In this document: piece after piece, positions 3,776-64,000 of the stretch
Numbering within the stretch: position 1 is the stretch's first letter
Layout of the letters: every line of letters begins with the position of its first letter
DNA from: Narcine bancroftii
Taxonomy: Eukaryota
Assembly: GCF_036971445.1 (NCBI RefSeq)
Contig: NC_091481.1
Span: forward strand, 72,912,001-72,976,000
DNA: 64,000 bases
Reading direction: 5' to 3'
Translations under genes and position numbers: made by a program
The notes under the pieces: generated by a model
The model's database searches: none
The model's input: the letters and a program-made list of their open reading frames with translations, nothing else
What the model was told of the DNA's origin: nothing

Positions 3776-5074
3776 AGAAGTAAATCACAAAAGCCTGCAA
3801 ACACCATGGTTGAAGTAAAAACACAAATTGCTGGGGAAACTCAGCAGGTCAAACAGTGTCCTTAATGTAGTAAAGATAATGATACAGAACCAACCTTTCA
3901 GGCTTGAGCCCTTCATCAACAGAAGAATGGTATTAATCTACTGCTTCTCATGAATTTCCAACAATGTAAATAGAGTGTTTAAATGTGCTTGTTTTGTTGT
4001 TGTTTTTCATTTGAATAAACTTTGGTTAAAAAAAAGTTGTGAATTGTGTGCAGGAGGGGAAGTGTTTTTGGGAGTGATGTGCTGTAGTGGTGGGCAGAAT
4101 GCAGAGCTGAGAACAGGACAGAGCTGGAGAAAGAAGGCAAAGCAACATCCCCCACACACAACTCTCTGGGCAAAGCAAGCCTTGGGATACCAGGAAGGGA
4201 AGGAAACATCTGAACTGAAAAAGGCAGAAAGTTAATTCACATTTACCTTCCTGGGAGAATTGTAGAATACATTGAAGAGTTTTCAGCCCTAAGATTACAG
4301 AGGGAGGGAGGAAGTGACAGACGGACAGACAATGCAGGATGAAAAGACAGAGTTACTGTTAATTACATTAATAATGTTTCATCATTATGACTACATTTCC
4401 TACACATTGGATTCTCCCAGTGTGACAACGGAAGGCTAAGGCTACAGCACTAACTTGCAACTGCACCGAGGATTTAACATCGTAGAATGCCTCCAGACAG
4501 AAAACTGACACTGCACCACACAAGCAGATATTGCAATGAGCAACCAAAAGGTTAGTTAAATGGGTAACTTTTAAACCTTTGGACTACGTGTCCCTATTTT
4601 CAGGGACTACCAACAAGGGCATATACTCCATGTCTCTGTTTTCTGAGACTGGTTTTGTACCCGACTATCAGCTGGTTTGAACTGGTGCTTGTACTGGAGT
4701 TTACCCATGGACCTCGTCCAGAGTGTATATTAAGCAAGGTTAAAAATGGCCAGAGTCCACAGGGTTAAGAAACCTCTTGCAAGGAGGATGGAGGGGGAGA
4801 AATTTTCAGGCAAAATCCAGAATTCAGGGTTAAAGCAGCTGAAGTTATAATTAGGAATAGACAAGAGGCCAGAAATGGAGGAGTAAGAGAAGGTGAAGGG
4901 TAATCAGGAAGGGGCAGTGTGGCTACAGAATCGGATGGGTTCAGTAATAGCACCATCATTCGATCAGGATTAAACAAGACTGGTCTGGGTAAGTTTCTGC
5001 ACAAGGGTGGGAACTAAGTGACAAAGTTTACAGCGGGAATTGTAAATAGCAGAAGTAAAACAATAATCTGCAGA

Positions 5075-5410
5075 CACCGAGGTTGAAGTAAAAACACAAT
5101 GTGGCAGAAACTCAGCAGCTCAAACAGTAAACTTTATATAACACAGATAAAGGGACAGAACCAACGTTTCAGGCTTGAGCCCTTCATCGAGATACGAGCA
5201 AAATGTAGGCAGGCGCCGTGTACTTTAAATAACATAGATAAAGGGATATAACCAACGTGTTGTTCATACCTCGATAAAGGGATATAACCAACGTGTTGTT
5301 CATACCTCGATAAAGGGCTCAAGCCTGAAACATTGGTTATGTCCCTTTATCTTTGCTACAAAAAGTACACTGTGTGACCTGCTGAGTTTCTCCAGCATCG
5401 TGATTTTATT
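5075..5410. mobile_element. Penelope-like element termini in inverted arrangement
   Basis: 5075-5260 minus-oriented and 5300-5410 plus-oriented copies of the same terminus, with a 37-nt local duplication at the junction. Confidence 0.7.
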
Positions 5411-6767
5411 TTATTGGAAATAGCACTTAGGTCTTTTCAATATTTGGTTAGAAATATTTTTGGCCTCCCAGCAGAGGACAAGGCTGGATTAAAATGAAGA
5501 GACAGCAATGGAGGGGGTCTCAGGAATGGTGGTGAAGACAATGCTGGGTGTAAAACCTAGACAACACTCTGCAGGACAGAGCACTTGCCCCTGGAAGGGT
5601 TACATTAATAAATCATTGACGTGAACCATCACAACATGAGCACAGATTGTCCTTTCAGCACCCTTTAAATGCTGTTTTCCCAAGGGGCTGATTGATTAGA
5701 GCTGACAATTTAAAGCAGATCAGAACCTGCTCCAGCTGTCAAGAGATTTTAGTTCTGAGGAGAACCTGCTAAGATGGTATCAGTGCAATAAAATCCATGC
5801 ACAGAATTTCAGATCCGTTATTTGCAATGCTACTTGCTTTCCTCATTTTAGATTCCTGCATGGACACCAGCTCTGGCCCTGCCTGACAACAGTCCACTCA
5901 GTGACAACGTGAAATCGGAGTGAGGCTCCCTCCTTCACATCTCAATCAATGTGCCTCATCTGAGGTCAGAGAAGATGCACGAGATTCCTTTAGTGAGAGC
6001 CATTCAATTCAAACCTGTGCAATAACGTCCCTGGGACTGGTTGGAAGTGAGAGCTTGTGGATTACTCATTATTAGAGTTTACTCATGAAGGTATGTAATT
6101 GGTGATGGGAGTGTTATCACTCTCATTAATATCACTGAGAGTTGCCAAGGGGAGAGAAAGAACTGAAGAAATAACATTTACAGCTTTTACTCAGCGTGAT
6201 GCAGGAAGAAGTTATTCCGAACCTGAATCATCCCTCAATGCCTCTCTCATACATCTGACTCTTTCCTTATGCCATTGTAGGACATTGATTTAGATTTACA
6301 GAGAAGATTACAAGTGAATTCAGGATGTATTTTTACACCAACAAAGTAGAAGAGGGTTGGCACCTCACTTACTTAAGGGGTGAAGGGGACAAAGACATTC
6401 CTCACACTTTTCTACATTATATTCCACCTGGTACGCATTAGCCTAGTCACCACACTCACCCCTCATTCTCCCCACGCACATCCTCTAGCATTCCCTTTCC
6501 CCTCACTCGCCCCTCGTATTCCCCCTCCTTCCTTTCCCCAAACTCCATGCATTTCCTCTCCCTCATTCAAACCCATTCTACCTAAACTCATTCCTGGAAT
6601 TAACTCTCTTTTCCAAAAACATGCTGGAAACGTTCCTGCTGGGAACCCCTATCACTTCAAGCCCTCTTGACCTTCTCCTCGCTTGTTGACCCCAAAGAGG
6701 TCATTGGTAAAGATGCGGTGTTAGCAGGGTAGGTCCCAGGGTTCCACACATGTACCAGAATACTCAC

Positions 6768-24500: not shown

Positions 24501-27500
24501 CTGGCACAATTTCTATTCTCTGGTATCTTTTTAATGTGTTAATTTTTTAAAAATAATTTAAATTTAAAAGATCTCCTGTCAGGCTGGTTGGGAATCGGTA
24601 AGGCACCAGTGATCTGGGGTTTCAGTTCATGGCCAGTCACAGAATATCCTCCTTGCTCGTTCTTGGAAGGTGTCAGGGGGGGGTATTAATTGTCATCTCA
24701 GTTGCTGTGAGAGTTGCATTAAGAGCCCTTTCGATTTTAATAAAACTATCTTTGCATCATCCACTCTCCACTCGGGCACATGAAGTTGGAGAAAGTTTAT
24801 GATCCCAAAAACGAGGAGGATGACATGATGGAGATGGAAGAGGAGCGTCTGCGGATGAGGGAGCACGTGATGAATGAGGTGAGTAATTGCCTGGGTACAG
24901 AGAGAGCAGCCAAACTTGAAATGTGTATTTTCTGAGGGGTGTCTGTTTCATTTTTACTCAGAATAATGTTGCACTCAATTCCTTTGCTGAGGGTCATTGC
25001 TGCACAGCGCGAGTTGAATGAAATCAAAGTTGAACTGCAAACATCCTGCCTGTTACATCAGTTCTTCCTTAAGATTTATAAAAAGGAGAACACCATGGAG
25101 GCCCTTGAGTCTGTTCCACTATTCAGGAAGATTGAGGCATTCTGTGTGGCGCGGTTAACGCAACGTTATCAGGCGCCAGCGACCCGGTTCAAATCCTGCA
25201 CTGTCTGTGAGGAGTTTGTACGTGTTCTCCATGTCTGAGTCCAGTTTCCTCCCACGTTTCAAAGTTGATGTAAAGAGTTGGTAGGTCACGGTCACATACA
25301 TGGGTGTATTTGGGCAGCATTGACTCAAGGGCTGGAAGGGCCTGTTAGTGTGCTATATGTCTAAATTTTTTTAAAAAACTAAATGTCCCCGATTTCCAGT
25401 TTTGATTCCTATAATTCCCTCAGTCTGCACAAATTTATTCATCTCAGAGTTAAGTATAACAATTAGACATCCTCAGCTCTTGGATGTAAAATTTTCTCAC
25501 CTCCTGAACACTGGGTAATAATTACTTCTCATCCCCTTCTTAAAAAGCTAGTGGTTCTAGCATCGTCAGCCAGCGGCAGTAGTCTGTTATCCTCCCCCCT
25601 CCCCCTCATTCCCTACACCTTTCCCCTCTCTTCTCACCCCTGTCCCCACACCCCTCTCTTCTCCCACAATTTCTCTCATTTCTTCCAACCCCCATGGGAC
25701 ATTTCTGTTTTAGAAGTAGTTCTTCCACCAGATGTCCCACAGGGTATTTGTGTTCTGACTGTGTTCTACCTTTAACTACCTGGAGTGGTGTCCCTAAAAT
25801 GGACAGAGGAGCGAGCCATCATTCCTGACTGCATGATCTTTCTGCTGCTGACAATTTACTTGCTGGGCAGGTCGACACCAACAAGGATCGATTGGTGACT
25901 CTGGAGGAATTTCTGAAGTCAACAGAGAAGAAAGAGTTCCTGGAGCCAGAGGAATGGGAGGTCAGTGTCTGATTTGCGGGAGGGATGGCCGTGAGGTTGG
26001 CGATGTTGAGGTGGAAGGGCACCAGGTCGCTCGAGCAATGCAGAACGACGTGAGAGCATCTGCCTGGTAATCCTGTTTTGTGTAGAATTTGCCCAGTGCC
26101 CACCCATTTAATTCCCTGCCCCATTGCTGTGTTGACATGTCTATCCATGGTCTCATGCACTGCCAGGCTGAGGCAGCCCGCAAATTGGAGGAGCAACACC
26201 TCATCTTCCGTCTGGGCACTCTCTAACCGGATGGCTTTAACATAGACTTCTCCGGTTTCCATGGAACACTCCTACCACCCTTCTTCTTCCCCTGTCGCCT
26301 TTCCCCCCAAAGCGCTCTCTCTCTCTCCCCCATTTTCCCTCTGTCCTTTCACAAAGGCAAAATCAATTCTCTCCTTTTATCATATCCAATTAACACCTTT
26401 TGTCTGTTAGTCTGGACATCTTCCCCTCCCATTCTTCCCCCTTCCCCCTTTCTCTCTCGTCTTTAATTAAGACGTCTTCCTGTTTTTTGCTTATACCTTG
26501 AAAGAGGGCTTAGGCCTGAAACATCAGTGATGTCTTTACCTCCTTTGGTGCTGTGAGACCAGCTGAGTTCCTCCAGCATTTCTGTGTTTTTTCTGCTTTT
26601 TTTTAAACAATATTTGTTTTTATATACGTATATATGCATGGCATTTGTATCATGTGTCTGTATGTGTGCCTGCATGTTCTGCACTGAGGACCAGAGAGCG
26701 CTATTTTGTTGGGTTGTATGTGTACAATCAGATGATTATAAATGATGTAAATGAGCAGAGGAGGAGGAGGAGGGCAATGGCTGGTATAGGTTCAGGGCTG
26801 CACTGACTTGGCCCAGGCTGAGGATGATGGAGCTGGGATTGTGTGGGGAGAGAGGAGGATAATGCTGAACTGGACTGGGGGGATGTCGGGTGGGTGGGCT
26901 TTGAGAACACAAGCTCGTGTTCCCTGTCCACTGACCATCCTCCTGCATTCTCCCGGAGCAGACACTGGACGAGACCCAGATCTACACGGAGGAGGAGCTA
27001 CGGCAGTATGAGCGCGAGCTGGCTGAGCAGGAGGCTGAGATTGCCCAAAGGGTGGAGCAGCTAAGGAGGGAACACGAGGACCTGCAGCGGAGGCAGAATG
27101 AACTGGACGCTCAGAAGAAAGAATATCAACAGGTTTGCTCAGTGGCCATCCGTTTCAGTTCCCTGCCCCATCCCCTTGATATTTCTGTCCACGATCTCGC
27201 GCACTGCCAGACTGAGACCACCCCCAAATTGGAGGAAGAAACCTCTTCCGTCTGGGCACCCTCCAACCGGATGGCATTAACATCGACTTTCCAGTTTTTA
27301 AATAATTCTCCCCCATCCCATAGCCTTCCCTCAGTTTTTTCTCTCTCCCCTTTTCCCACTGTCTCCTTTCTCAGAGCCAAAATCAATTTTCACCTTTCCT
27401 CTTATCACATCCAATTGACACCTTTTGGCTGTTGTTCTGAACACCACCCCCTGCCTGTCTTCAGTCTTCAATTTGCCTTCCTGTTCTTTGCTTATTCCTT

Positions 27501-30187
27501 GATGAAGGGTTCAGACCAAAACGCCGGTAATATATCTTTACCTCCTATGGATGCTATGAGACTGACAGAGTTCCTCCAACACCTCTGTGTGTGTTTAATG
27601 CTCAGTGGCTCACCAGCCCTGTGCTCATGTAGAATTTTGGAGTGAGAGGGGAAGGACGATGGCAGAAGGTAACAGCACTGTGTTCCAGCAACACTGCTTC
27701 AATCCTAACCCCCGTGCTGTCAGTGTGGAGTTTGATAGATTTCCCTCTAAGTGCTCTGATTTTTCTTTCCCATGTCCCAAAGGTGTGCAAGTTGGCAGGT
27801 TAATTGGTGGCTGTAAATTGCCTCTGGTGAGAAGGTAATTAGTAGAATAAGTGGGGGTTGTGGGAGGTAGGAGGAGAGGTTGATGAGAATGTGAGGGAAT
27901 AATAATAGAAGCTTGATGGTCAGTGAAACAAGGGTCTAAGGGTCTATATCCCTAGAGGGACCATTGGAGAGTGTCTGTGATCCAAATACCCCCTTCCCTG
28001 GCCATGGGTCCTGAGACCAACACATATTTTCAAAAGGATTACTTCCTGAAAAACAATTCGGGATTCCAATAGACAACTTCAAGCTGAACATAAAGGTAAT
28101 TTCAGATTTGCTGTATCATGTAGGAAGTTGGCAAAACGTTATATTAACTTTGATTGAATTTAGCCTATCTAATCGCATAATGATACTGAAACACTGCATT
28201 AGTTTGTCAGACCTAAAAATGTTTTGCCACTGATTTTCATTTGTACTCGGCATCTGATACCTCATGTGTCAGTGTCCAACAGTAGTCGGCCAGTATTGAT
28301 GGATTCCAGTTACCCTGATACCACTTTTTCATGGTCGCAATGTCCTGGTGAAACCTTTCACCCGTGTTCCTCACTGGCGGCACCAAGATCAGCTGGGGAA
28401 AAGCCCAAGTGCAAATGCAGAAAATAAATTTTCAATGACATGTGGCACTTCTTGGTTTTGTAAGCTGGAAGTCGACTTAAAATATGACAGGAAATCACAA
28501 AAATAGGTAATATTGAACAATGCAGCAGAGAAACCGGTCCTTCGGCCCTGCTAGTCCATGTCGAACTATTATTTTCCCTAGTCCTACGTAAAAAAAAAAT
28601 GTACGTGATATGAAATTTTAAAGGTTATTTTCATGATCAGCCCAAAATCCATAAAATACACCCAAAAGTCTCCAGGAAGCAAAATATTCAGTGCCTAGTG
28701 TTATTGCTACCATGGGAGCTGGCTCAGCCAATCAGGCCAGTTGAGAAAGGAACCATTTGTCCTTCTGTCGATCAATCACAGTGACCATCCAAAATCTCTG
28801 CAAATGAGGTGATGGTTGCTATATCACATACTCTGGATCTGATGCTTCCTCCCTGACTGCCTTCTCTTGTGACCCAGGCCCTACAGCAAATGGAGCAGAA
28901 GAAATCTCAGCAGAAGGGCCAAGCCCCTGCTCCTGGCCCTGGAGGAGAACTGAAATTCCATCCCCCTCAGGCAGCAACAGGTAAGGAGATCTGATGGAGA
29001 GGCAAGCCACCTCTAGGTGAGCAGGAAGCTGGGCTGGGTGATGGGTGCTGTTGGTATCCTTGTCGGTGACGTACAATGTGTTTACAATCTCCCAGGACTT
29101 TGCCTGTCCTGCAGTGTTGTGGCCTGGCCTGTTGATACTTTGGAGATGAAAACCTTGCTGCCAGAGGATTGACTTACAAGTTTGCAGATCCGTGGCCCTT
29201 GCCTGCTTTAGCCTACCATACAATCATTGATCGTTAAAAATGTCACCCCAAAACCAGGGTTGCCTTGTACACCAAGTGTAAAATCCAAACCTTAACAGTG
29301 AAGCTTCAGTACTTCCCACCCCGGGGTCCATCCATCCAGTCCGAATGCTGTCGACTCTGTTCAGGTTTTAAGTGGCCTGTTAAAGGAGCCGACAGTGGTT
29401 ACTTTAAAATGTGATAATAAAATGTAAGCCTTTACTGGGTCATTTGCTTTTATGAAATTGTGAATTAGTATATTAAATGTGCCCAGCAGGATCACTCCAC
29501 TGGTCATCGATAAGTGCCAGACTTGGGGTAGTCTTATATGGCAAGTATAACTCAAAACCTACATTTTAGGTGGAAATTCAGGGGGTCATCTTGTGCATGA
29601 GTTGTCTTTAGGCTGGTATATACAGTAATCATAACTAAAGTCTGGACCAATACAGTTGGCTGTTAACTGATATCTGAAGTGGCTTGGCCAACTATTTGGT
29701 TTATGGGTGGGGCAATAACCATCAATCCATTAACTGGAAAATGTTACATCCAAATGTTAAGTGTTGTAGGCAATGTTACACCTGTCAGCATCTGGTTATC
29801 TTAGAGGTGGATAGCACAGAGGATCATTTGGTCCAGAGTGTCTATGTCGGACCACCAGTTTCATTGCAAATACAGAGATTTGGTGCTCAATGCCATCAGC
29901 AGGAATGGGACTGAGCTCCAGTGACAAGGTTCTTCCCAATGTTGAGCCTTCCTGCTCTGCCAGTTGTGGTTTTATGTGAACTTGTTGTATCTCTGGGTCT
30001 TTCAGATGTCCGAGCTCCAGTCAATGAGCCAGCACAGGTGCAGCCAGAGGTGGAAAGGCTTGAGCATGCACCTGGCCACCAGGCTGACCAACCACGGCCA
30101 CCTGGCCACCAGGCTGACCAACCAGCACCAGCTGCCCACGATCCAATGGAGAAGCAACCAGAGACAACAGCGTCACCATTGCAGTGA
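12415..30187 (+). CDS. NUCB1: Nucleobindin-1 (calnuc), full spliced CDS of 12 exons, 1425 nt, 474 aa
   Basis: join(12415-12519,18392-18499,19279-19411,20953-21056,21338-21523,22042-22132,22744-22802,24786-24878,25871-25960,26962-27132,28878-28980,30006-30187). All introns GT-AG and phase-consistent. NUCB1-diagnostic residues [21 protein letters not shown] and HPKVNVP; two EF-hands; coiled coil. Confidence 0.93.
12657..12993. mobile_element. Tc1/mariner-type MITE
   Basis: Termini TACTGTATATACT ... AGTATATACCATA. A further MITE family has two mutually similar copies at about 23080-23515 and 29215-29627. Confidence 0.55.
13028..13270 (+). mobile_element. tRNA-derived V-SINE/HE1-like SINE
   Basis: B-box GGTTCGAATCC, V-domain-like GGAATTTGTACATTCTCACCGTGTCTGCATGGGTTTTCC. 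Further copies about 13555-13765, 24117-24330, 25146-25365, 27660-27830, 35230-35410(-), 53960-54100, 57760-57880. Confidence 0.8.
14942..16735. mobile_element. Non-autonomous hAT (Charlie-like) transposon with cargo, 1794 bp
   Basis: TIRs CACACATGTCAAACTC / GAGTTTGACACCCCTG, perfect 8-bp TSD CTATAGAG (14934-14941, 16736-16743), subterminal GGCCCGC repeats, no transposase ORF. Confidence 0.9.
15769..15997. repeat. About 31-bp tandem repeat (GAGAAACTCAGCAGGTCAAGGGGGGTCCGG), about 7 copies
   Basis: Directly visible; the unit derives from the Penelope-like terminus. Confidence 0.9.
17128..17360. mobile_element. Penelope-like termini in inverted arrangement
   Basis: GAGGAACTCAGC...AGGTAAAGATAT mirrored by ATATCTTTACCT...GCTGAGTTCCTC. 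Another inverted pair at about 34780-35140. Confidence 0.7.
18392..18499 (+). CDS. NUCB1: NUCB1 coding exon 2 ([36 protein letters not shown])
   Basis: 108 nt, AG/GT flanks, nesfatin-1-like region. Confidence 0.95.
19279..19411 (+). CDS. NUCB1: NUCB1 coding exon 3 ([44 protein letters not shown])
   Basis: 133 nt, contains the dibasic KR processing site. Confidence 0.95.
19505..20845 (+). mobile_element. Rex/Babar-type LINE fragment with an antisense copy of the same family nested at 19556-20109
   Basis: WCEITT..LNVDK / TKEMIMDF is split by the insert; both carry the IIxxPFxxAHSIFQL motif. Confidence 0.8.
20953..21056 (+). CDS. NUCB1: NUCB1 coding exon 4 ([35 protein letters not shown])
   Basis: 104 nt, AG/GT flanks, phase 1 to 0. 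Confidence 0.95.
21338..21523 (+). CDS. NUCB1: NUCB1 coding exon 5 ([28 protein letters not shown]...HPKVNVP)
   Basis: 186 nt, AG/GT flanks. Confidence 0.95.
21806..21900. repeat. 24-bp tandem repeat x4 (TGGTCCCCTGTCCGCGGCCACCCG)
   Basis: Directly visible. Confidence 0.85.
22042..22132 (+). CDS. NUCB1: NUCB1 coding exon 6 ([30 protein letters not shown])
   Basis: 91 nt, donor G|GTAAGT. Confidence 0.95.
22338..22479. mobile_element. hAT-type MITE
   Basis: TIRs CAGTGGTTCTTAACC / GGTTGTGAACCACTG, imperfect 8-bp TSD AATTATGC/ATCTATGC. A second copy at 62150-62811 is interrupted by a Rex LINE. Confidence 0.7.
22744..22802 (+). CDS. NUCB1: NUCB1 coding exon 7, EF-hand 1 loop ([20 protein letters not shown])
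   Basis: 59 nt, canonical EF-hand loop. Confidence 0.95.
24786..24878 (+). CDS. NUCB1: NUCB1 coding exon 8 ([31 protein letters not shown])
   Basis: 93 nt, near-invariant nucleobindin acidic linker; atypical acceptor catgaAG. Confidence 0.93.
25871..25960 (+). CDS. NUCB1: NUCB1 coding exon 9, EF-hand 2 ([30 protein letters not shown])
   Basis: 90 nt, AG/GT flanks. Confidence 0.95.
26962..27132 (+). CDS. NUCB1: NUCB1 coding exon 10, leucine zipper/coiled coil ([19 protein letters not shown]...KKEYQQ)
   Basis: 171 nt, AG/GT flanks. Confidence 0.93.
28012..28700 (-). mobile_element. Chapaev3-like DNA transposon deletion derivative
   Basis: Terminus CACTAGGCACTGAA...TTTGCTTCC; [29 protein letters not shown] transposase C-terminus. 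Confidence 0.6.
28878..28980 (+). CDS. NUCB1: NUCB1 coding exon 11 ([34 protein letters not shown])
   Basis: 103 nt, conserved GELKFHP motif, donor G|GTAAGG. Confidence 0.9.
30006..30187 (+). CDS. NUCB1: NUCB1 terminal coding exon (DVRAPVNEP...TASPLQ*)
   Basis: Acceptor ggtctttcAG, phase 1 matches previous exon, TGA ends at 30187. Confidence 0.8.
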
Positions 30188-31590: not shown

Positions 31591-32599
31591 TAAATTCACT
31601 GAAAAACAGGAAAGTCTGTAGATACTGGGGTTGAGTGCAATACTGAACCCATGTTCAATAACAAGTTCAGCATGTCAGGCAGCATCTGTAGAAAGAACAG
31701 TCAATGTTTCAGGTCTGAGACACTTCATCAGGTTAGTCCAAGTAGCAGAAATGGGGAGGGGAGAGAATGGAATGTCTTTCACCTTTCTTTACAGTGGTGC
31801 TAATATGGTCATGAGACGTCGATCTGATCGACTAAGACAAGGCCAGTTAAGGAAAAAGAAAGGGATAACAGGCCACAATGGCCAGTCGTGAAGAAAGAGA
31901 TCGACACTAGTTAACCTGTTATGAAGTTTATGGTCATATACTCAATGCAATGAGAAACTTTATTGCAGCATCCCAGGAACATAAACATACAACACGAGAA
32001 AAATATACCAGTAATAGGAAAAGATAAATCCTTTTTTCACAATATACTCAACTACCACCTTGCATCACAATGCTGATGTTTTTTAGACTGGAAAAAACAT
32101 CTGGAGATACAAGATGGCATTAAATGAAATCATCATCTTGCTCTTATTGATGTCTTGTTCTTCCTATTTCTAAAATGTTCCATTTCTCTGGGAACTCTAT
32201 ATCAATGTTAGCCATTTTTCCCCATTAGAATTTTGGGCTTTTATTTGCAAATTAGATTCATTTTCAGAATTGGTCACGAACCGGTCATGAAATTTGTTGT
32301 TTTGCGGCTTTACAGGTACAAAATTGCTACAAATTACATTTTAAAAAATAAATTAGTGCAAGAGAAAGTGAGGTGGTAAAAGCATAATACTGGAGAAACT
32401 CACCAGGTCAAACAGTGTACTTTATATAGCAAAAATAAAGGTACATAACCAATGTTTCAGGCTTGAGCCCTTCAAAGTTCAAGCAAAATGTAGGCAGGCA
32501 CTTCGACATCTCTGCAATATCTTAGTCGGGCCGATTACCTCTCAGCTGCTGACATTCCAGAGAAAACAAGTTAAACTTCTCATAGCTACTCTAATCTCT

Positions 32600-34550: not shown

Positions 34551-36837
34551 CTGAAAGAAGATTATTGTTAAGCGAAGCTTTTTCCTCAGTTTTGGTTAAT
34601 CCTGTGACTGCAGCCCCCCCTCCCCCCGCCCACACTCTTGCCACAGCTACTTCATCCAGATATGCTTAATGACAGGACTAATGTCTGACTTGTTAACCAG
34701 TTCCTGGAGTCAAATCCAGCTAATTAAAACAGAAACCAAGCAGGAAGTGAGATGATGGAAGAACTCATAGGTAGGTGAAAACAAAGCTGGAGAAACTAAA
34801 GTCGAGCAGTGTCCTTTATTTAGCAAAGGTAAAAAAAATACATAACCAACATTTTAGGCTTGAGCCCTTCATCTCTGAAATTTTTGAGGGATGCCTACCC
34901 TGAAGAAGTTCTCCTTTGCTTTCCAAAGAGAGTTCTGTGGGATCTTCCTGCCTTTGTGACCTCCCCTCTTCGACTCTTGTTTGGACACCTGCCAACATTT
35001 GTCCATACTTTAATGAAGGGCTCAAGCCTGAAACGCTGGTGATGTACCATTACTATATAAAGGACACTGTTTGACCAGCGGAGTTTCTCCAGCATTGTTT
35101 TTACTTCAACCACAGTCCCTACAGACTTTTTTGCTTTACTTCTGTGGGTAGAAATAGTCAATATTTCAGGTTGGGACCCTTCATTGAAACTACAGTAGGA
35201 AGAGGTGATAAAGAAGTTTTAAAATTTTATTTGCAATACAGTAGAAGCCAATTCTAGCCACTGAAACCTGTGTCACCCAGTTAACCTACAACCTCTGGTA
35301 TGTTTTGGAGAGTGGGAAGAAAGTGGAGCATCCAGAAGAAACCAACGCAGACATGGAGAACAGACAGCACCAGAATCAAACTCTGGTTCACTGATGCTAT
35401 AATAGTGTTACACTGACTTTAGACCCAGAAATGTTGACTGACCATCGCTAACCATGGTGTTACCCATCCCACAGCAATTTGTAATGCCAGCCGTCGGTCA
35501 GTTTTTCAACTGAACAGGAAGTGTTGACTAATATTGCAATCATTGGGCATCATGCCCAGACTGAGTCAGATTTCACCTATTCTTGACCACATTACATCAC
35601 ATTTCCACAAGGCAACTGAATCACAGCACCAACACCCTTGGTAACAATTTCCTCAATAGGGTGGGGAGGTACTTGTAGGATATGGAATGGGACTGATGGA
35701 AACAGAAATACAATCTTCATAGAATCTGCATGGGATGGGGGCACTCTTGAACAGTTCAGAGAAGTGAATCTGCTGGGGAAGTTGAATCCATGACAATCTG
35801 AATACCAACACCCCATCTCTTGCCTCGGGACTGTTAACACCTACCTTTTTGAGAGTCTTCCTCTGGTTCTCATGGGTTTCTTGCTTTGAGGTCGATGCAG
35901 ACTGCTCCACACCACAGGTGTCAGCATTGAAGCACAAACCAGGGGTCTCTAGCAGTCCCTCTTCTGTCAGCTCAGTGTTACAGACCCCTTCCTTCTCTCC
36001 TTGGTTAGTGGTGGTCGTGAAAACAAGAACGTTTAAAAGGTTAAAAGGATCAGTGTTTTCAGAGAATGAGTCCCATAGTTTGTCATTTTCAGATTCAAAC
36101 TGAACCAAAGAATCTTCTTCTTTGTCTGTATCAGTATTGCAGGCCAGGTGCCCAGTTGATGCTGAGAAATTCAAGGGGTTATAGGGATCAGATTGAAAGA
36201 AGGAGTCCCAGAGAAGACGAGAGTCACTTTCATCACACAATTCATCATCCTCAGAAGACCAATCACTGGACTCTCCATCATCCATTAGTGATCCCTTGGG
36301 GACATTAATCCAATCATATGGAACCTCTTCACCTGCCCAGGCCTGCGACTGGGCATTCTCTGTAGCATCCGGCCAGATCATTGATAGAATGAGTGGATTT
36401 GCACAGCTGAACTCCATGTCACTTTGCTTTCTCACTTGGCCACCCATCTGGCCACCACTGCCTGCCACCAGGACTTTCCCTTCAGCCATTGAGGGGTTAT
36501 TTCCAGGTGGAAAAGAATGGGGCAGCAAGGAAGCACCAAGATCAGCAATGTACTGCAGCAGGCCCAGACTATTGGTGTGATGGTCACGTCGAGGGCCACA
36601 GTCCTCCGTGACAACCACGTTGCTACCCCCCTGGTCCTGTGGTTGGTGGTCCACAGCTCTCCTCTTCATTTCTGTCAGTCTGTAACAAGTGCTGCTTGTG
36701 GACAAGAATGCATTAAGCAGGAAGAGGTAGAGTTCCAACAATCTCCACCACACAACGGTGATCCACAGCAGCCAGCAGTGGGTTTTCTCCGGGCTCTGTC
36801 CATCAAAGGGCGTTGATGGATCCATGTCTGTCTGCAT
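34296..36837 (-). CDS. PPP1R15A: Protein phosphatase 1 regulatory subunit 15A (GADD34), 415 aa (432 aa if the exon-1 AUG is used)
   Basis: complement(join(34296-34550,35845-36837)). PP1-binding KK|VRF split by the intron, AARKGPWEQYARDRSRFQRRI eIF2alpha-phosphatase core. 3-exon structure and NUCB1/TULP linkage favour 15A over 15B. Confidence 0.82.
35845..36837 (-). CDS. PPP1R15A: PPP1R15A large coding exon
   Basis: Acceptor ccttgctatcccAG (exon starts 36847), ATG at 36837, donor AAG|GTAGGT at 35845. N-terminal hydrophobic helix, acidic stretches, two LWDSF..DP(Y/F)N repeats. Confidence 0.85.
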
Positions 36838-37015
36838 GCTGAGGTGTCTGGGATAGCAAGGAGAAAAGGTGTTAGAAGCAGGCTGTCCCCAGGAGGTACA
36901 GCTGTCTCAATCCAATCCACCCACCCCCCCCCCCCCCAACCACCGGCAGCGGCGGCCCCCCCACCTGATCCCACGCGCCCCGTCACCGTGAGCCCAGGCC
37001 TACCTGTGGGTGCGC

Positions 37016-40425: not shown

Positions 40426-42590
40426 AAAGAGGGATGGAGGAGGAACAGAGGCATGCGGGAGTGGAGAGTCTGAGAGGGCAAGTTCCCCTAATCAGTACGG
40501 ATCTCCCTCTGTATCCACATTTGGGTTAGGGATAGACATCAGACATCCATTTACTGTTGCAGCATCCTCTCTGGTGATCTCTTTTGGATGCAAACTCTCA
40601 GAGCTCCATTGCAAATCTTTCCATGGATCTGTACTGATAACCAGTTCAGAAGGCAGACCGCCAAGAAGTTGGATGCAATGTTTTGTAAACAAGGGGACAG
40701 CATATTACTGCAGACAAAACACAATGTTGGAGAAACTCACCAGGTCAAAAAGTGTACTTTATATGGGAAAGATAAAGGAACATAACCAACGTTTTGGGCT
40801 TGAGCCCTTCATCAAGGTAGGAGCAAAATGTAGACAGGCATCCGAACAAAATGGTGGCAAGGAGGGGTGGGTGGAGGAGTACAGTCCCAAAGGCAAGAGG
40901 TAATAGATGGATAAGTGAGGGAGGGCACAGCAGCAAAAAGGGGGAGGAGAGTTGGCTCTATGAATGAAGAGTGAAGGGGTGGAGAGCTGGAGTAAAGAAG
41001 ACAAGGGGAAAGAGAAGGGAGGGAGAACGGAGAGTAGATTAGCAGTTGATGTCAATGCCATCAGACAGAAATTCAAGTGTTCCTCCAAATTACAGGTGGT
41101 TTTAGTGGGATAGTACATGAGGCCATTTACAGACATGTGAGCATGGGAGTGTTTGGCCACCGGGAGATTCCTATAATTGATGTGGACAGATTGAAGAAAG
41201 TGGGATGAGACAAAGGAGAAGATTGAGAACAAGTTCTGCCAGATAGTGGAGGGTGGCCATGGAGGGTGATTGGTTAGATCCAGCTGATTTTTTTTTACTC
41301 CAGATTTGAGTATCTGGCATCTCTCCAAATTAAAGTCTGGCTGAGGTGGGTTGGAATACTCGAACACTTTTCTCATTCACAGTTGAGGGAGTGAGGAAAG
41401 TCTGGGTGCAAAGGGCCAATTACATTTGGGTCAGAGGGTCAGGGTAAAGGCTTGACTCAATATCTCCTGTGTGTTAAAGGATGGTAGAGGGATTGTTACT
41501 CTCTTACCCTGGAAGTACATCGTATCATTTCCAGCATCAACAATCTGCAACGGAAGAGCATCAGATAATTGATTATTGTATTTTGCTTGAGGGTTGGATA
41601 AAGATGCCATTTGAGTCTATCAGTATTTGTAGACCAGTTTATAATCAGGGCCTCCAAAGCAAAAGGATCTTGACAGTCATCCAGTCCTGGAACAGGAAAA
41701 CTACACAATCTAAAATTTATATTTTTCCTAATTTAGACCTACAGCACAGTAATAGGTCCTCAATAGTGTGATGTCTACTCTTGTTTGTGACCACATCATC
41801 TATCTACAGTTGATCAAATGGATACCATGCCCCTGCTTTTTTTCAAAGAAAATGTTAGGTGTGTTTTCTTTCCCATTCACCTGCAGACTTGACTTAACAT
41901 AGAACAGAAACAATGTGGTCTTGTTTTGGAACTGCACTGGAACGTGAGCGTGTACCCTGCTGTTCCATAATCTACTCTGGGCCTTGATCCACAAAGTTCT
42001 GGTTCTGAGTGCCAAGTACTGTGAAGCATCTCACATCTGCAACAGGTCACAGTGTGTTGCTTCTGTTTACAGGCTGGGGATAGTTCACTGCTCTTCCCTG
42101 TTTTGTTTTCCACAAGCAGTCTTACAGGTTAACTAATACTGTTCACATGACTGACCCATGAATGCATCACCAGATCCAATTCCAACAGAGGCATCAAGTT
42201 TGCAGATGACACAACAGTAGTTGGCCTCATCAGCAATAATGATGCGTCACGCTGTAGCCATTATAAAGTGAAAGAACAAGAGCACAATATATGGTTACAA
42301 TGAAAAAAAATTATCAATTAGTATCAGGCAAGGGCAGCATGAGGACACTGTTGTGGGGTTCATTCAGGAGTCTAATGGCTGCACATTCAGGAGCCAACTT
42401 ATTCCTGAGATTTCTCACTTCTATCCAGAGAAAGGTCCACAAAGCTACTGGCCCAACTCTCTGAAGCTGACTTCCTGCAAATAGATTCAGTGAATTATAT
42501 AAAAAACACACAAATGCTGGAGAAACTCAGCAGGTGTGGGGGAACATGAGAGATGTCTGAACAAAAGGGGGAAGAGTGAATTATATATAT

Positions 42591-47185: not shown

Positions 47186-48781
47186 GAGTATATAGAAATG
47201 TTTTTGGTCCTCTGGGCTCTTAACAACTGTCCCTCATAGCTGTACGCAAGATAAGACAAATTCTAATTCCCCTATTCTATATTCATATCCACTGCTATGG
47301 GAGACTGCAAGGTGGACAGGGATCTCAGGCACATACTGTATACCTATCTATGAAACTCTGCTCCCACAGGACACACTGATTCTTACCTGGATATCTCCGA
47401 AGAACAATACCTTTGTAGACAGGTTTTCTACGGGTGCCTGGGCACAGGTAAACATGCTGCAGGAGGACCACTGTGTTCTCTGACATTTACTGTTTCTCTG
47501 TGGAAGACAAGGTGACTCACACTTTATGACCTCTTCATGGCATCTCTTCTGCAAATCTCTGCCACTTTCCCCAATCTGCCCTTCACCCCAGCGTCAGGGG
47601 TCACAGAAACACTCAAAAGAACCAACTCAGTGAGGAGCCCATAACTTCTCAGGCAGTGATTTGTCAGCTTGGCTGCCTTTCCAGGAGGACATCCAATCAT
47701 TGACTGGATTTGTACCTTCAGCACAACTTCCTCCTCAACTTCAGAGGTTCCCACTGCCTCAATTTGTAGCTGGTCATAGGTCACCATCGCAGAGACTGGG
47801 CACAGACTGGGACATCGATTCGTTGAGCACCTCGGTTCTGTCCGTCACAATAGTGTGGATCTCCCAATGCCCACCCATTTCAATTCCCCATCCCATTCCC
47901 TATCCGATGTGTCTGTCCATGATTTCATGCACTGCCAGACTGAGACCACCTGCAAACTGGAGGAACAACATGTCATCTTTTGTCTGGGCACTCTCCAACT
48001 AGATGGCATTAACCACTTCTTGGGTTTCCGTTAAACCACCCCCTTCTTCTTTCCCCTTTTGTCTTTCCCCCAGCTCTCTCCCCTTTTCTCTCTATCCCCT
48101 TTTACAGAACTAAAATCAATTATCACCTTTCCTCTTATCATATCCAATTAACACATTTTGGTTGTTGGTGTGGACTCCTCCCCCTGCATTATCCAGGCAC
48201 CTTCCTGCTTTTTGCTTATACCTTGAGGAAGGCCTCAGGCCTGAAATGTCGGTAATATATCTTTACCTCCTATGGACACTGCAAGAACGGCTGAGTTCCT
48301 CAAGCGTCTGCAGACTTCTGTGTTTCCACAGACCATCAAAGTGCTATGCTTCCTGGCAGCATTCACGATCCATTCATCCTGAGAAGCAAAAAACCGTCGG
48401 ACATTTCCAGTGGCTGCCAATGCCAAAAGGATGGATTCTGAGAGAGAAGGTTGCCCTGATCAGCCCTTCCCCTTCTTGTCAGAAAAGACTCACAGCTGCA
48501 GAGCATCAGCATAATGACAACAGTTGAAGGTTTGAGCTGTTCAGGATGTAACCACACCCTGTACAAAAACCCTCTGCAGAATTCACCAAACGAGTGATCC
48601 ATAGACAACAGCTGGAGCCAGAGGAAGAAGAAGGAGCCCTGGTCCCAGCTTATCCAGTCCTAGTTCAAGTTCATTGTCATTTCACTACCTATTTAGTCGA
48701 AACAGGGAAGGTGGCTGATGAATTTCTACAGCCTTATATTCAATTGGGGCTGCACAGTTGCGGGGACAAAAAGGAACTCTA

Positions 48782-60237: not shown

Positions 60238-61889
60238 CCAGGCAGTGGGAGATGGAGTTAGTGCCAGGGATAAAAGTGTTTGTAATGTCCAGCGCTGCAT
60301 TCAGCACAGCTTTCAGCTCCTTCAGACCTTCTGCACGGCAGCTCCCACACCTCTCCAGTGGCCCCACAATGGGGCCAAAAGGAATGAGATTCCCTTTCAG
60401 TTGTTGACAGCCATAGCAGCAGAACAGCAATCTGTGTCATGCCAATGGAATTCTGACACCCACCTCTGCCCACGCCTCACTGCTGTGATCAAACTCAGCA
60501 AGGATTCCATCTCTTTGCTGCAGAATCCCATTGTAGGTCTCTCCCCTCAATGTGCCCTCCTCAGGCTCTTGTCTCTCACTCTCCCTGTCTCACTCCTTCA
60601 TCCACCCCCTCAGTCTTTTTCTTAGTCTCTCCCACCTTTCACACAGTTCCCCTCTCCCCAGCGCTCTCAGCCCTTCACTTCACAAACCCAATGAAGGCCT
60701 GACTCTCACCAGCAGCCATTGCGATGTGTGACTGGGAACGATGCTGGTCCCTGCAGCGGCCAGCTGTCAACGATCTCCAGAGGAGAAGCATATTCCAGAC
60801 ACTCGACAACACAAGAACTGCAATGCTGGAATCCTGTGTGAGCAAAGAGAAGTCAGAGGGAGTCAGTGGCAGTATCCATGGGGTGAAATGGTCAACCGGG
60901 GGAGGGGATATCCAAGAGCAGGAGGATTGATGGAGACTTACAGGAGTCATTAGTGGGGCAATTGTCAGGATTCCTTGACAGAGAAATAGGCATGGAGGAA
61001 GAGGCAATGGAAGAGGAGTCCAGCATTGTGGTGGAGAGGGAGTCCAGTCTCTGTAAAGGACCCACCATTGACCATTTCTCCCCTCAGAAGCTGCCTGACC
61101 TGCTGAGTCACTCCAGTCTCCCCTCATGTCCCAGAGATTGAGTCTGGGTAAGCAGGAGTTGGCAATTTTCCCTATTGAGCCTGATTCACCATTCAACAAG
61201 ATAAGGCTGACCCATCGCTGTACACAGCTCAACTTATACACGTGTTCCCATAACCCTGAGTTCCACCATTGTTCTGCGTCTTAAATGCATTTATTGCTCT
61301 ACTGCTTCCTTGGGCAGAGAATTCCACAGATTCACTCGCCTCCAGGAAAAGCAATTCTTCCTCACTTCAGCTTAAACCTGCTCCCCTGAACTTTGCAGTG
61401 ATGTCACCTGATTCTAGTCTCACCAGCCAGTAACAACAACCTCCCTGCTTCTCTCATCCATTCCTTTTATAATTTTAGATTTTCCAAGACATTCCCCCCT
61501 CATTCTTCTAAACACCAAAGAGTACAGTCCCCAGCTGCTCAATCTCTCCTCATGTTAACCCCCTCCTTTCTGGAATCAAACTGGTGAACCTTTTCTGCAC
61601 CACCTCCAAAGGCAGTATATCCCATTTTTTGCACCAAGGACCAGAGAACACGCTGTTTCGTCAAGTTATACTTGTGCAATTAGATGATAATAAACTTGAC
61701 TTGGCTTGACGACTTGACTTCAAACAAGGAGACCAGAACTGCACACAGTATTCCAGGTGCCGTGATTAAAAAGAATCCAAGGATATTTTTCTTCTGTAGA
61801 TATCCATTTGACCAGTCGAGGTGAGAGGATTTGATGAGACAGCATAGAAGGAGAAACACAATGCTGGGGAAACTCAGCAGGTCAAACAG

Positions 61890-62135
61890 TGGACTTTCTA
61901 TAGCAAAGATAAAGGTGCATAACCAACATTTTGGGCTTGAGCCCTCCATCAAGTTATGAACAAAATGCAGGCAGGCGCCATGTACTTTCTATAGCAAAGA
62001 TAAAGGTGCGTAACCAACGTTTCAGGCATGAGCCCTTCATCAAGGTACAAGCAAAATGTAGGCAGGTGTTGTGTACTTTGTATAGCAAAGATAAAGGAAC
62101 ATAACCAATGTTTGGGGCATGAGCCCTTCAAAGTA
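61890..62135 (-). repeat. 91-bp tandem repeat x2.7 of a Penelope-like terminus
   Basis: Units start at 61890, 61981 and 62072. Confidence 0.9.
62011..62047 (-). ncRNA. Minimal type I hammerhead-ribozyme-like motif (dimer type, C3U variant)
   Basis: UACC-UUGAUGA-A-GGGC(UCAU)GCCU-GAAA-CGUU-GGUUA: core boxes, 4-bp stem II, palindromic ACGU stem III, ACC/GGU stem I. Activity untested. Confidence 0.55.
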
Positions 62136-64000
62136 TGATCAATGTAGAGCAGTGGTTCTCAACCCATTTCTTCCACTCACATACCAAGTCATAAAATTAA
62201 GATACCGATTTATTGTTGGAGTACATACATGACATCACATACAACCCTGAGATTTTCATGTGAGCAAGGCAGAATTACCAGTGCAAAAAAAAGACATAAC
62301 ATACACATGTTGTGAAATATATAGTGAGAAAAAAATCAATAAAGTGCAAAGTAAGAGTTCTTAAATGAGTCCCTGATTGAGTTTGTCATTGAGAAGTCTG
62401 ATGGTGGAGGGGTAGCAGCTGTTCCTGAACCTGTTGGTGCAAATCTTGTGGCCCCTACACCTCTTTTCCTCATGGCAGCAGCAAAATCAGTGTGTGAGCT
62501 GGCTGGTGTGGATCCTTGATGACTGCTGCTGCTCTCCTACTGCAGTGTACCCTGTAGCTGTGCTCAACAGTGGGGAGCGTTTTGCTCGTGATGTCCTGGA
62601 TTGTGTCCACTATCTTTTGCAGGGCTTTGTGCTTAGACGTACTGGTGTTCCAATGCCAGGCTGCGATGCAGCCAGTCAGCACACTTTTCACCACGCCTCT
62701 GTAGAAATTTGCCAGGGTTTCCTATGTCATGGGTGCATAGGATGCCATTAGTGCAAGGGATTGCTTCAGGTCATATTATGTCAATGGAAAGAAAAAATGT
62801 TGAGAACCACTAGGGAGAGGGGTCTTATTGTATATCCATCCTTCTGCACCGCCCAGAGGAAATATGATGGGACAGTGTGGAAGGAAGCTTTAATCTCAAT
62901 CAAAGGCGCTCTACTTAGCGAGGTTGAGGGAGGTTTAGCCTCTATCTAAAACGCTCGTTCTCTTGGTGGTGTTTGAAATGTGGTAACCAAGAGTTTTGTG
63001 CTAGATCCAACCCATGGCGTATTTCCCAGACGCGAGGGATGAGAGAAATCGGGGCACAGGAGCGGCGGATGTTGGGTCTGGAAGAAAAGGTGGAGAGCCG
63101 GCAGGTCGGACAGCGCCGGCGGAGCCCGCATCCTTCGTTGAGTTTCATCGGATCGAGCAGCGTCTAGGGAGCGGGGAGGAGGGAAGGTGACGACATTTCA
63201 GGTCTAGATCCTAAAACAATGGTTCTCAACCTGTTTTTTTTTGTCACAGCCCTAAACCAAGGCTGAGTTGCCCCAGATTGTCCTCTTTGCTCCATGGAGC
63301 GTTTGTTCCTGGAATGTGTTTGATGCAGGACGGGGTTGTGATAACATGTTCACGTTATCCCGTCACCAGCAGTACACGCAGAGATGGTGGCGTTTACCAG
63401 TTTGTCGTTGTGCTCTGGAACTCAGAGTGTTAATGTACTGTGGCAGGCAGCGAGTAATTATAATATATTTAGCAGGCGGAGCTGGGGGCGAGGGTACAGT
63501 TGCCATGTGTGTGACTGTGTGAATTGTCCTGAAATAGTTATGCAGAGCAAATGGATGTGTTGGCAATTGGTGGAATGTGGATACGAGTGAAGGGGACAGG
63601 CTGGAGGGGCTGTGGCTGCAGCTGACACCCGTGCCCAGAGTAGACGAAGCGGACGGGGAACCGAGGAGCGTCCTAACCGGTGAACGGTGAGTAGAGGGGC
63701 TGGCGAGGGGGAGGAACTTTGACAGACAGACTTGTGCTCAGGATGGTGGCTGGAGGGGTGTTTATCTCCTCCTCTCCTTCCTCCTGTATTAAGGGTGTTG
63801 CTCGGGGAGAAAGACCCTGGGAAGAAGACCCGGTGTCCATCCAGACCCCATCTCTGACAACCGCCCACTCTCCCCTCCTTCTCTGACTCACTCCCCCCTC
63901 CCAGTGAAGAATCTTCCTCACCCCTGGGACTGTGCACCCATCTCCCCCATCATCCATGGATGAGCCTCTTCCCAACTCCAGGAAGGATGGGGAAGCAGAG

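What the first reader, a model, noticed from the sequence alone, without database searches (positions are those of the whole stretch)
61890..62135. 91-bp tandem unit carrying a dimer-type hammerhead ribozyme motif, found at two independent loci (retrozyme-like system)
Seen: three head-to-tail 91-bp units, each with a minus-strand motif; the best copy reads UACC UUGAUGA A GGGC-UCAU-GCCU GAAA CGUU GGUUA. The same 91-bp period and the same junction (GCAGGCGCC-RTGTACTTT) occur 57 kb away at 5131-5258, so the tandem form looks like an inherited property of a mobile family rather than a local slip. Known: Penelope-like elements carry minimal hammerheads whose palindromic stem III only folds as a dimer, and animal non-LTR retrozymes are tandem hammerhead repeats processed into small circular RNAs. 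Inference: this may be an unusually short (91 nt) self-cleaving, possibly circularising, RNA family. Caveat: the core has U at position 3, and copies 1 and 3 carry damaging substitutions.
Basis: partly seen in the sequence, partly recalled or inferred. Interest (0 to 1): 0.75.

Follow-up and report, generated by a model that had tools for sequence, protein, structure and literature searches.

The report
Tandem Penelope retrotransposon ends with hammerhead
These 91-base repeats are decayed tail ends of a very common Penelope-like jumping gene, likely in a ray or shark; each carries that gene's predicted self-cutting RNA motif (damaged in two of three copies), they were likely stacked head to tail during insertion, and such repeats are a known by-product rather than a separate circular RNA.

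Summary
In detail: 2.7 copies of a 91-bp unit at 61889-62143, a minus-strand minimal hammerhead motif, and the same junction at 5217. The unit is not a stand-alone element. It is the sub-terminal part of the 3' end of an abundant Penelope-like element (PLE). Nine insertion loci of this family lie in the window, and one single copy runs on into a GIY-YIG endonuclease remnant. Both arrays begin with the PLE terminus, and locus 5052-5412 is a classic inverted PLE pair with a 13-bp target duplication. Units are only about 82% alike and the core decays at the background rate. Only unit 2 keeps an intact core, so neither locus holds a complete dimer today. The family core is U3·G8 with a GUU site. 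In contigs of four runs the 91-base joint was not among the best-supported joints shown, but the list was cut. Short PLE-derived hammerhead tandems (51-972 bp, also in a cartilaginous fish) are already published. Left open: the same breakpoint occurs three times without microhomology, and units within a locus share variants (p=0.002, small numbers). Verdict: new member of a known kind, low interest.

The parts
61852..61888 (-). 3'-terminal ~37 bp of the PLE (inner start, no optional tail); outside the repeating unit
   Evidence: aligns with the termini of the other copies
61889..61979 (-). Unit 1 (91 bp); hammerhead motif 61958-61918 damaged (A9G, G12A, C15.2U)
61980..62070 (-). Unit 2 (91 bp)
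62009..62049 (-). Only intact minimal hammerhead motif of the array: stem I, core with U3·G8, extra A, 4-bp stem II, GAAA, palindromic ACGU, U17; predicted cut between 62016 and 62015
   Evidence: activity untested
62071..62143 (-). Unit 3, 5'-truncated; 3-base deletion in the core, G12C
62150..62812 (.). Stretch bounded by hAT-like inverted termini (label recalled); no PLE sequence resumes after it
5052..5258 (-). Locus B left arm: 36-bp optional tail, terminus, one full unit (5127-5217, motif 5196-5156 with U4C), the same junction, then 41 bp of a second unit ending at stem I
5259..5412 (+). Locus B right arm: inverted 5'-truncated copy without the optional tail (motif 5301-5341, U4C and G8A), with a perfect local 36-bp duplication over the inversion point
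5039..5051 (.). Left target-site duplication of locus B (13 bp, 1 mismatch; right copy 5413-5425)
   Evidence: 0.6% of 2000 random 30-nt pairs reach this length
40715..41196 (-). Single copy of the same family that continues past the 91-bp unit through a purine/pyrimidine-biased 3' UTR into a GIY-YIG endonuclease C-terminal remnant (41053-41196)
   Evidence: tblastn E=1e-5 with P0018
53130..53439 (-). Single copy with optional tail that continues past the unit into the same 3' UTR
34778..35149 (.). Second inverted pair of the family; tail on one arm only; no 91-bp junction
47780..48306 (+). Sister-family PLE end with a better kept GIY-YIG C-terminus (47780-48031) and a U3 hammerhead motif that keeps C17

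Best explanation
The array is the decayed 3' end of a Penelope-like retrotransposon whose hammerhead-bearing 91 bases were likely copied two or three times in a row during one insertion, the reverse transcriptase likely stopping about 131 bases in from the element's end and restarting about 41 bases in. Shown: the unit is part of the PLE end; each array has one terminus followed by repeats; the arrays are as old as single copies; today's loci hold no intact dimer. Inferred: target-primed reverse transcription, restart at preferred coordinates, and that the ancestral dimer cleaved weakly at best. The identity as a PLE end (about 0.97) holds under every rival; the confidence given is for the restart mechanism.
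For: PLE identity: a same-family single copy reaches an endonuclease remnant. The sister fragment matches GIY-YIG clusters (score 0.95) and RT+GIY-YIG proteins such as P0034, and its named relatives come from rays and sharks. PLE insertion anatomy: two inverted pairs, an optional 36-bp tail on 4 of 13 termini and on one arm of each pair, and a 13-bp target duplication; the papers describe these features (PMC8557442, PMC3846280, PMC11167929). Made at insertion: units within an array are 79-85% alike, like unrelated copies, and all sit about 10% from the window majority. Segments of one locus share non-CpG variants at 8 of 344 sites against 20 of 4140 between loci (permutation p=0.002), and the 9 pairs between the two arrays share 1 in all. 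The family throws off short go-back joints of several lengths (35, 38-40, 47, 60, 106 bases) in contigs.
Against: PLE restart at these coordinates is not a described site: the two canonical start sites lie 41 and about 77 bases further out. There is no microhomology to guide a jump. The variant-sharing test rests on 7 pairs and 8 sites, was designed after I saw the data, and one shared change (B1/B2) is absent from the inverted arm. Unit 3 lacks the two changes shared by units 1 and 2. An identical breakpoint three times is just as expected from one duplicated source element. The 91-base joint was not among the 15 + 12 joints shown (130 + 88 hidden), which fits poorly with a strong hot spot, though detection there was weak.
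Confidence: 0.45

Rival explanations
1. A non-autonomous PLE derivative with a built-in 91-bp duplication (a 'non-LTR retrozyme' in the loose sense of the 2026 preprint) spread by the PLE enzyme; the duplication would give the minimal hammerhead its dimer partner in cis.
For: The same base-exact junction at two loci without microhomology. A nested double-hammerhead fold can be drawn for two units. PLE pLTR derivatives in short tandems are published (10.64898/2026.07.22.740005).
Against: Position-matched units of the two arrays share no derived non-CpG change, while units within a locus do. The joint is not among the best-supported joints in four runs (list cut). The dimer fold is predicted 15 kcal/mol above the minimum for the majority unit (-12.7 against -27.5), although nearest-neighbour energies ignore tertiary contacts.
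Confidence: 0.3
2. One reading: dimer cleavage released a 91-nt RNA that circularised and was copied by rolling-circle reverse transcription, homogenising the units.
For: Within-locus sharing of variants is what a unit-length template predicts. Stems I and II are kept across copies and sister families (94% of cells paired, 3 pairs with two-sided changes; 18 and 28 of 500 shuffles reach these values).
Against: Both arrays carry the PLE terminus, which is not in the circle. The core is U3·G8 with a GUU site. Core positions differ from the majority as often as others (23/142 against 208/1369). Only 1 of 3 units at the finding and 1 unit of the left arm of locus B have a whole motif. The circular unit folds no better than shuffles (z -0.3; linear z -0.64). 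Published minimal PLE hammerheads cleave weakly even as dimers (PMC4209133), and 8 of 9 Xenopus dimers gave no cleavage (preprint).
Confidence: 0.1
3. Independent local DNA duplications or gene conversion soon after insertion.
For: Within-locus sharing. Local slips do occur here: the perfect 36-bp duplication at 5237-5317 and the 30-bp array at 15769-15997.
Against: Identical breakpoints at loci 57 kb apart, with no microhomology. Units are as diverged as unrelated copies.
Confidence: 0.1
4. The junction is a splice between a weak donor in one pLTR and an acceptor in the next (or a back-splice), later retrotransposed.
For: On the sense strand the 131 side follows a pyrimidine run and CAG, like a 3' splice site. 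PLE pLTRs can hold introns (PMC2377424 passages).
Against: A splice at the nearest GT would give T where the three junctions have G, G and A. The donor fits the consensus poorly (by eye; no splice model was available).
Confidence: 0.05

Closest known systems
Minimal hammerheads (min-HHR) in PLE pseudo-LTRs (Cervera & de la Pena 2014, PMC4209133)
   Same: Type I layout, extra base between 9 and 10.1, palindromic 15.2-16.2, location near the PLE 3' end, mostly single truncated copies, close pairs on opposite strands.
   Different: U3 faces G8 (that paper describes C3-G8 and U3-A8), H17 is U in most of this family, and stem II is 4 bp rather than 7-8.
PLE-derived non-LTR retrozymes of vertebrates (Li, Clavereau & Pollet 2026, bioRxiv 10.64898/2026.07.22.740005)
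   Same: Short tandems of a type I (canonical or minimal) hammerhead unit homologous to a pLTR. Units of 51-972 bp (mean 98 in the sarcopterygian). Most families have at most 7 units. Found in the one chondrichthyan sampled.
   Different: These arrays fail that paper's 'active' rule (two consecutive complete motifs), and its U3·G8 core may not fit their descriptor. They keep the PLE terminus.
Canonical animal non-LTR retrozymes (Cervera & de la Pena 2020, PMC7229834)
   Same: Head-to-tail repeats with one type I hammerhead per unit; vertebrate ones need dimers.
   Different: Those have canonical hammerheads, 170-400 nt units, up to tens of copies and abundant, highly paired circular RNAs. None of this is shown here.
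Partial-tandem and inverted insertions of EN+ PLEs (PMC8557442, PMC3846280, PMC11167929); Neptune-like by inference
   Same: 5' truncation, inverted pairs, optional 30-40 bp tail on one arm, target duplication, C-terminal GIY-YIG.
   Different: Here the internal repeat restarts 41 bases inside the inner start site at a fixed point; I did not see this in the passages read. The clade is inferred only from the Cys linker of protein relatives.

Membership tests
EN+ Penelope-like element (3' end) | C-terminal GIY-YIG endonuclease upstream of the 3' UTR | tested here: met
   Same-family copy 41053-41196, tblastn E=1e-5; sister copy 47780-48031 matches GIY-YIG clusters. Pfam alone did not detect either fragment.
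EN+ Penelope-like element (3' end) | Telomerase-like reverse transcriptase in the same ORF | tested here: inconclusive
   No copy in the window reaches that far. Relatives P0034 and P0133 carry weak RVT_1 matches.
EN+ Penelope-like element (3' end) | 5'-truncated, tandem or inverted insertions with an optional 30-40 bp tail | tested here: met
   Two inverted pairs; 36-bp tail on 4 of 13 termini (the profile was built from those four, and no further terminus matched); 13-bp target duplication at locus B, none clear at the finding or the second pair.
PLE minimal hammerhead | Core CUGANGA with a Watson-Crick 3-8 pair | tested here: not met
   U at position 3 in all 11 of 14 segments that have the position; G8 is the majority. 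No C3 row among the 40 differences shown (296 hidden).
PLE minimal hammerhead | Extra base after A9, G10.1-C11.1, GAAA, palindromic 15.2-16.2 | tested here: met
   Unit 2 has G·U at 10.1-11.1, but C is read at 49-83% of summed depth in three runs, so the U is likely CpG decay.
PLE minimal hammerhead | Stems I and II supported by compensatory change | tested here: inconclusive
   94% of cells paired; 3 pairs change on both sides, mostly in sister families; 7-28 of 500 shuffles reach four of the five measures, 153 of 500 the fifth.
PLE minimal hammerhead | Self-cleavage as a dimer | not testable with these tools
   Needs a bench assay.
Non-LTR retrozyme | [quoted passage not shown] | tested here: not met
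   1 of 3 units intact at the finding; 1 complete unit on the left arm of locus B. Likely met at the time of insertion (inference).
Non-LTR retrozyme | Unit length (170-400 nt in PMC7229834; 51-972 bp in the 2026 preprint) | tested here: inconclusive
   91 bp fails the first range and fits the second.
Non-LTR retrozyme | Highly self-paired monomer | tested here: not met
   z -0.34 circular, -0.64 linear, for unit 2.
Non-LTR retrozyme | Unit-length linear and circular RNA | not testable with these tools
   Only contigs were available.
Rfam hammerhead families | Match to a covariance model | tested here: not met
   No hammerhead family among 10 matches at E<=5.

The most novel reading that the evidence does not exclude
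This PLE's reverse transcriptase loops back over a fixed 91-nt segment with no microhomology, or copies a 91-nt hammerhead-cut circle after priming at the normal terminus. It would then write ribozyme dimers afresh at insertion, which would be a caught-in-the-act birth route for retrozymes, using a lineage-wide U3·G8/U17 core variant that still cleaves with protein help.
Probability: 0.12. Interest if true: 0.6.

Novelty: new member of a known kind. Interest (0 to 1): 0.22.

Why it matters
As it stands it is an ordinary fossil of a very abundant retrotransposon, and PLE-derived hammerhead tandems are published. Its modest value is as a natural record of how PLE tandems form, a step the field calls unresolved (PMC8557442 passages). 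If the fixed 41/131 breakpoints recur independently across the genome, they mark a stop and restart site that can be tested with a purified PLE enzyme, and they would show how retrozymes bud off pLTRs. The U3·G8 core, shared with a sister family, may also be missed by standard CUGANGA descriptors (inference), so such motifs could be undercounted in cartilaginous fishes.

Tried and rejected
No whole genome is held, so no genome-wide count. Rfam: no hammerhead match. An 18-nt family motif gave 6 viral and 74 metagenome loci; in a profile search 0 of 80 extended beyond the motif region (best 16 bits), so they were treated as chance. Indexed protein search for longer relatives: none. No RNA holder listed. 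Run X6 is only guessed to be RNA and holds contigs, so it says nothing on expression, ends or circles. The read lay used a single copy that differs from the family majority near both breakpoints, and its tables were cut, so the absence of the 91-base joint is weak and gives no frequency. My first idea, that the 41-base restart is the canonical inner start site of the PLE tail, was rejected: the tail lies further out. A junction made by ribozyme cut and ligation was rejected: it lies 27 nt upstream of the core and 35 nt downstream of the cut site. No target duplication was found at the finding (best 7 bp with mismatches). Literature: no hit for hammerhead+C3U+wobble or retrozyme+elasmobranch; one search listed no paper with the term U3-G8; one search listed one review. 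The Lunse 2016 paper on PLE hammerhead dimers could not be read, so it may already describe U3·G8 variants or short tandems. Supplements of the preprint and of PMC7229834 (Fig. S7C, 'minimal HHR copies in tandem') were not seen and may bear on novelty. Earlier scan notes: nothing on this sequence or genome; the 8 listed concern other genomes.

Full report
Observation. The array is real. TRF finds period 91, 2.7 copies, 84% matches at 61889-62130. Units 1 and 2 are full; unit 3 ends near 62143, next to a stretch with hAT-like termini (label recalled). The minus-strand motif of unit 2 reads as reported. The junction string occurs only at 61971 and 5209 at up to 4 mismatches. At 5127-5258 there is one full unit plus 41 bp that stop before the core.

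What the unit is. A profile search of the window gave 27 hits. I kept 14 same-family segments at 9 insertion loci and set aside 13 (7 sister or other families, 5 terminus-only pieces, 1 local 36-bp duplicate). The unit is the stretch 41 to 131 bases from the common end of these copies. Two of the 9 loci have the junction. Copies at 40715 and 53170 run past it into a purine-rich stretch. The 40715 copy reaches a coding remnant at 41053-41196 that matches P0018 at E=1e-5. The better kept sister fragment at 47780-48031 has 431 relatives at E<=0.001 and GIY-YIG look-alikes at 0.95. It also matches proteins with weak RVT_1 and GIY-YIG hits (P0034); Pfam alone missed both fragments. Named relatives come from rays, a skate and the whale shark, plus echinoderms. 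So this is the 3' end of an endonuclease-bearing Penelope-like element, likely in a cartilaginous fish and likely Neptune-like (inferred from the Cys linker of relatives). It is very abundant: 23,004 contigs of run X1 were laid on 301 bases, and 14,260 and 23,789 in runs of two other organisms (not copy numbers).

Insertion anatomy. Locus 5052-5412 is an inverted pair with a 13-bp target duplication, one mismatch (0.6% of 2000 random pairs). A 36-bp extension stands on 4 of 13 termini and on one arm only of both inverted pairs. Partial tandems, inverted copies and an optional 30-40 bp tail are the described PLE signature (passages of PMC8557442; PMC3846280). The tail lies between two reverse-transcription start sites (PMC11167929, parts 1-2 of 4). 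Both 91-bp arrays have one PLE terminus followed by repeats.

The ribozyme motif. It has the minimal PLE layout of PMC4209133 (parts 1-2 of 4 read): extra base after A9, palindromic ACGU, short stem I. Stems I and II are 94% paired over 13 aligned segments, with 3 two-sided changes; the shuffle controls are suggestive only. G10.1-C11.1 is likely ancestral, since C is read at 49-83% of depth in three runs. Position 3 is U opposite G8 throughout this family and in three sister copies, and position 17 is U. The papers I read describe C3-G8 and U3-A8; that a U·G wobble and a GUU site lower activity is my recall. Units 1 and 3 have broken cores, and locus B has U4C. Core positions differ from the majority at 23 of 142 against 208 of 1369 elsewhere, so there is no sign of selection on the inserted copies. 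The unit folds no better than shuffles. A nested double hammerhead can be drawn for two units but is predicted well above the minimum (-12.7 against -27.5 for the majority unit; -9.9 against -35.0 for units 2+1).

How the tandem arose. All copies sit about 10% from the window majority, and units in an array are 79-85% alike, like unrelated copies, so the arrays are about as old as the insertions. The breakpoint is base-identical three times, has no microhomology, is not the cut site, and is not a canonical start site. Segments of one locus share non-CpG variants at 8 of 344 sites against 20 of 4140 between loci (permutation p=0.002); the 9 pairs between the two arrays share 1. This favours copying from one template per insertion, but it rests on 7 pairs, was done after the fact, and has exceptions (unit 3; the inverted arm of locus B). 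In contigs laid on the 40700-41000 copy the 91-base joint is not among the 15 + 12 joints shown (130 + 88 hidden). Go-back joints of 35, 38-40, 47, 60 and 106 bases are shown, and loose ends at 40838 in two runs read as the normal continuation. That copy differs from the majority near both breakpoints, so this is weak evidence and gives no frequency. I put restart during insertion at 0.45, an inherited duplicated source at 0.30, a 91-nt circle at 0.10, local duplication at 0.10 and splicing at 0.05.

Comparison with what is known. The 2026 preprint (parts 1-3 of 5 read, supplements not seen) reports tandem hammerhead repeats of 51-972 bp in 20 of 31 vertebrates, including its one chondrichthyan. 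It derives them from PLE pseudo-LTRs and found cleavage in 1 of 9 dimers. PMC7229834 (part 2 of 6 and passages; supplement unreadable) defines canonical retrozymes as 170-400 nt expressed circles and mentions PLEs with minimal hammerheads in tandem. PMC11167929 found the hammerhead protein-assisted and dispensable for insertion in vitro. Also seen: passages of PMC6765202, PMC2377424 and PMC3884650, and section 8 of PMC3088659. The Lunse 2016 paper was seen only as a reference title. The array looks like a PLE-derived short retrozyme but fails the two-intact-units test and shows no feature of an expressed circle.

Verdict. Observation confirmed; interpretation partly supported. New member of a known kind, interest 0.22. 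The boldest reading not excluded is a fixed loop-back or circle that writes ribozyme dimers afresh at insertion (probability 0.12, interest 0.6 if true); a genome-wide unit tree and a cleavage assay would settle it.

Noticed in passing
joint 40819 back to 40780/40781: The best-supported go-back joint in contigs is 38-40 bases long and would duplicate just the bare hammerhead, probably through an AAGGTA microhomology. Depth is 894 in run X1 (most single pieces show 5-15) and it also appears in X5 and X9. It may mark a ~40-bp hammerhead-only tandem family elsewhere in these genomes.
   Followed up: no
window 15755-15997: 7.4 copies (91% alike) of a 30-bp unit made of the PLE's terminal segment plus a G run, directly behind an older copy at 15630-15740.
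   Followed up: partly
window 17127-17328: Inverted pair of sister-family PLE ends; its hairpin gives a sub-threshold Rfam MIR6457 match (59.8 bits, gathering 140), likely spurious.
   Followed up: partly
position 40811 and 40788: Core position 7 (the freely variable one) is C in 39% of depth in run X5, and position 17 is C in 12% (X1) to 43% (X9); sister-family contigs may supply the C17 share.
   Followed up: no
window 31667-31740 (-): A further PLE-type end whose motif has canonical C3.
   Followed up: no
window 19111-27645 (+) and 35653-36906 (-): Host genes: nucleobindin-like exons (NUCB1_N, E=1.7e-17) and a PP1-binding-region ORF (PP1c_bdg, E=7.9e-9). A PLE endonuclease remnant begins right behind the exon near 27130.
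   Followed up: partly
P0002, P0017, P0107: Ray and skate gene models in public databases (named mucin-2, RecQ5, neuromedin-U receptor) contain this PLE endonuclease end: exonised pieces or annotation artefacts.
   Followed up: no
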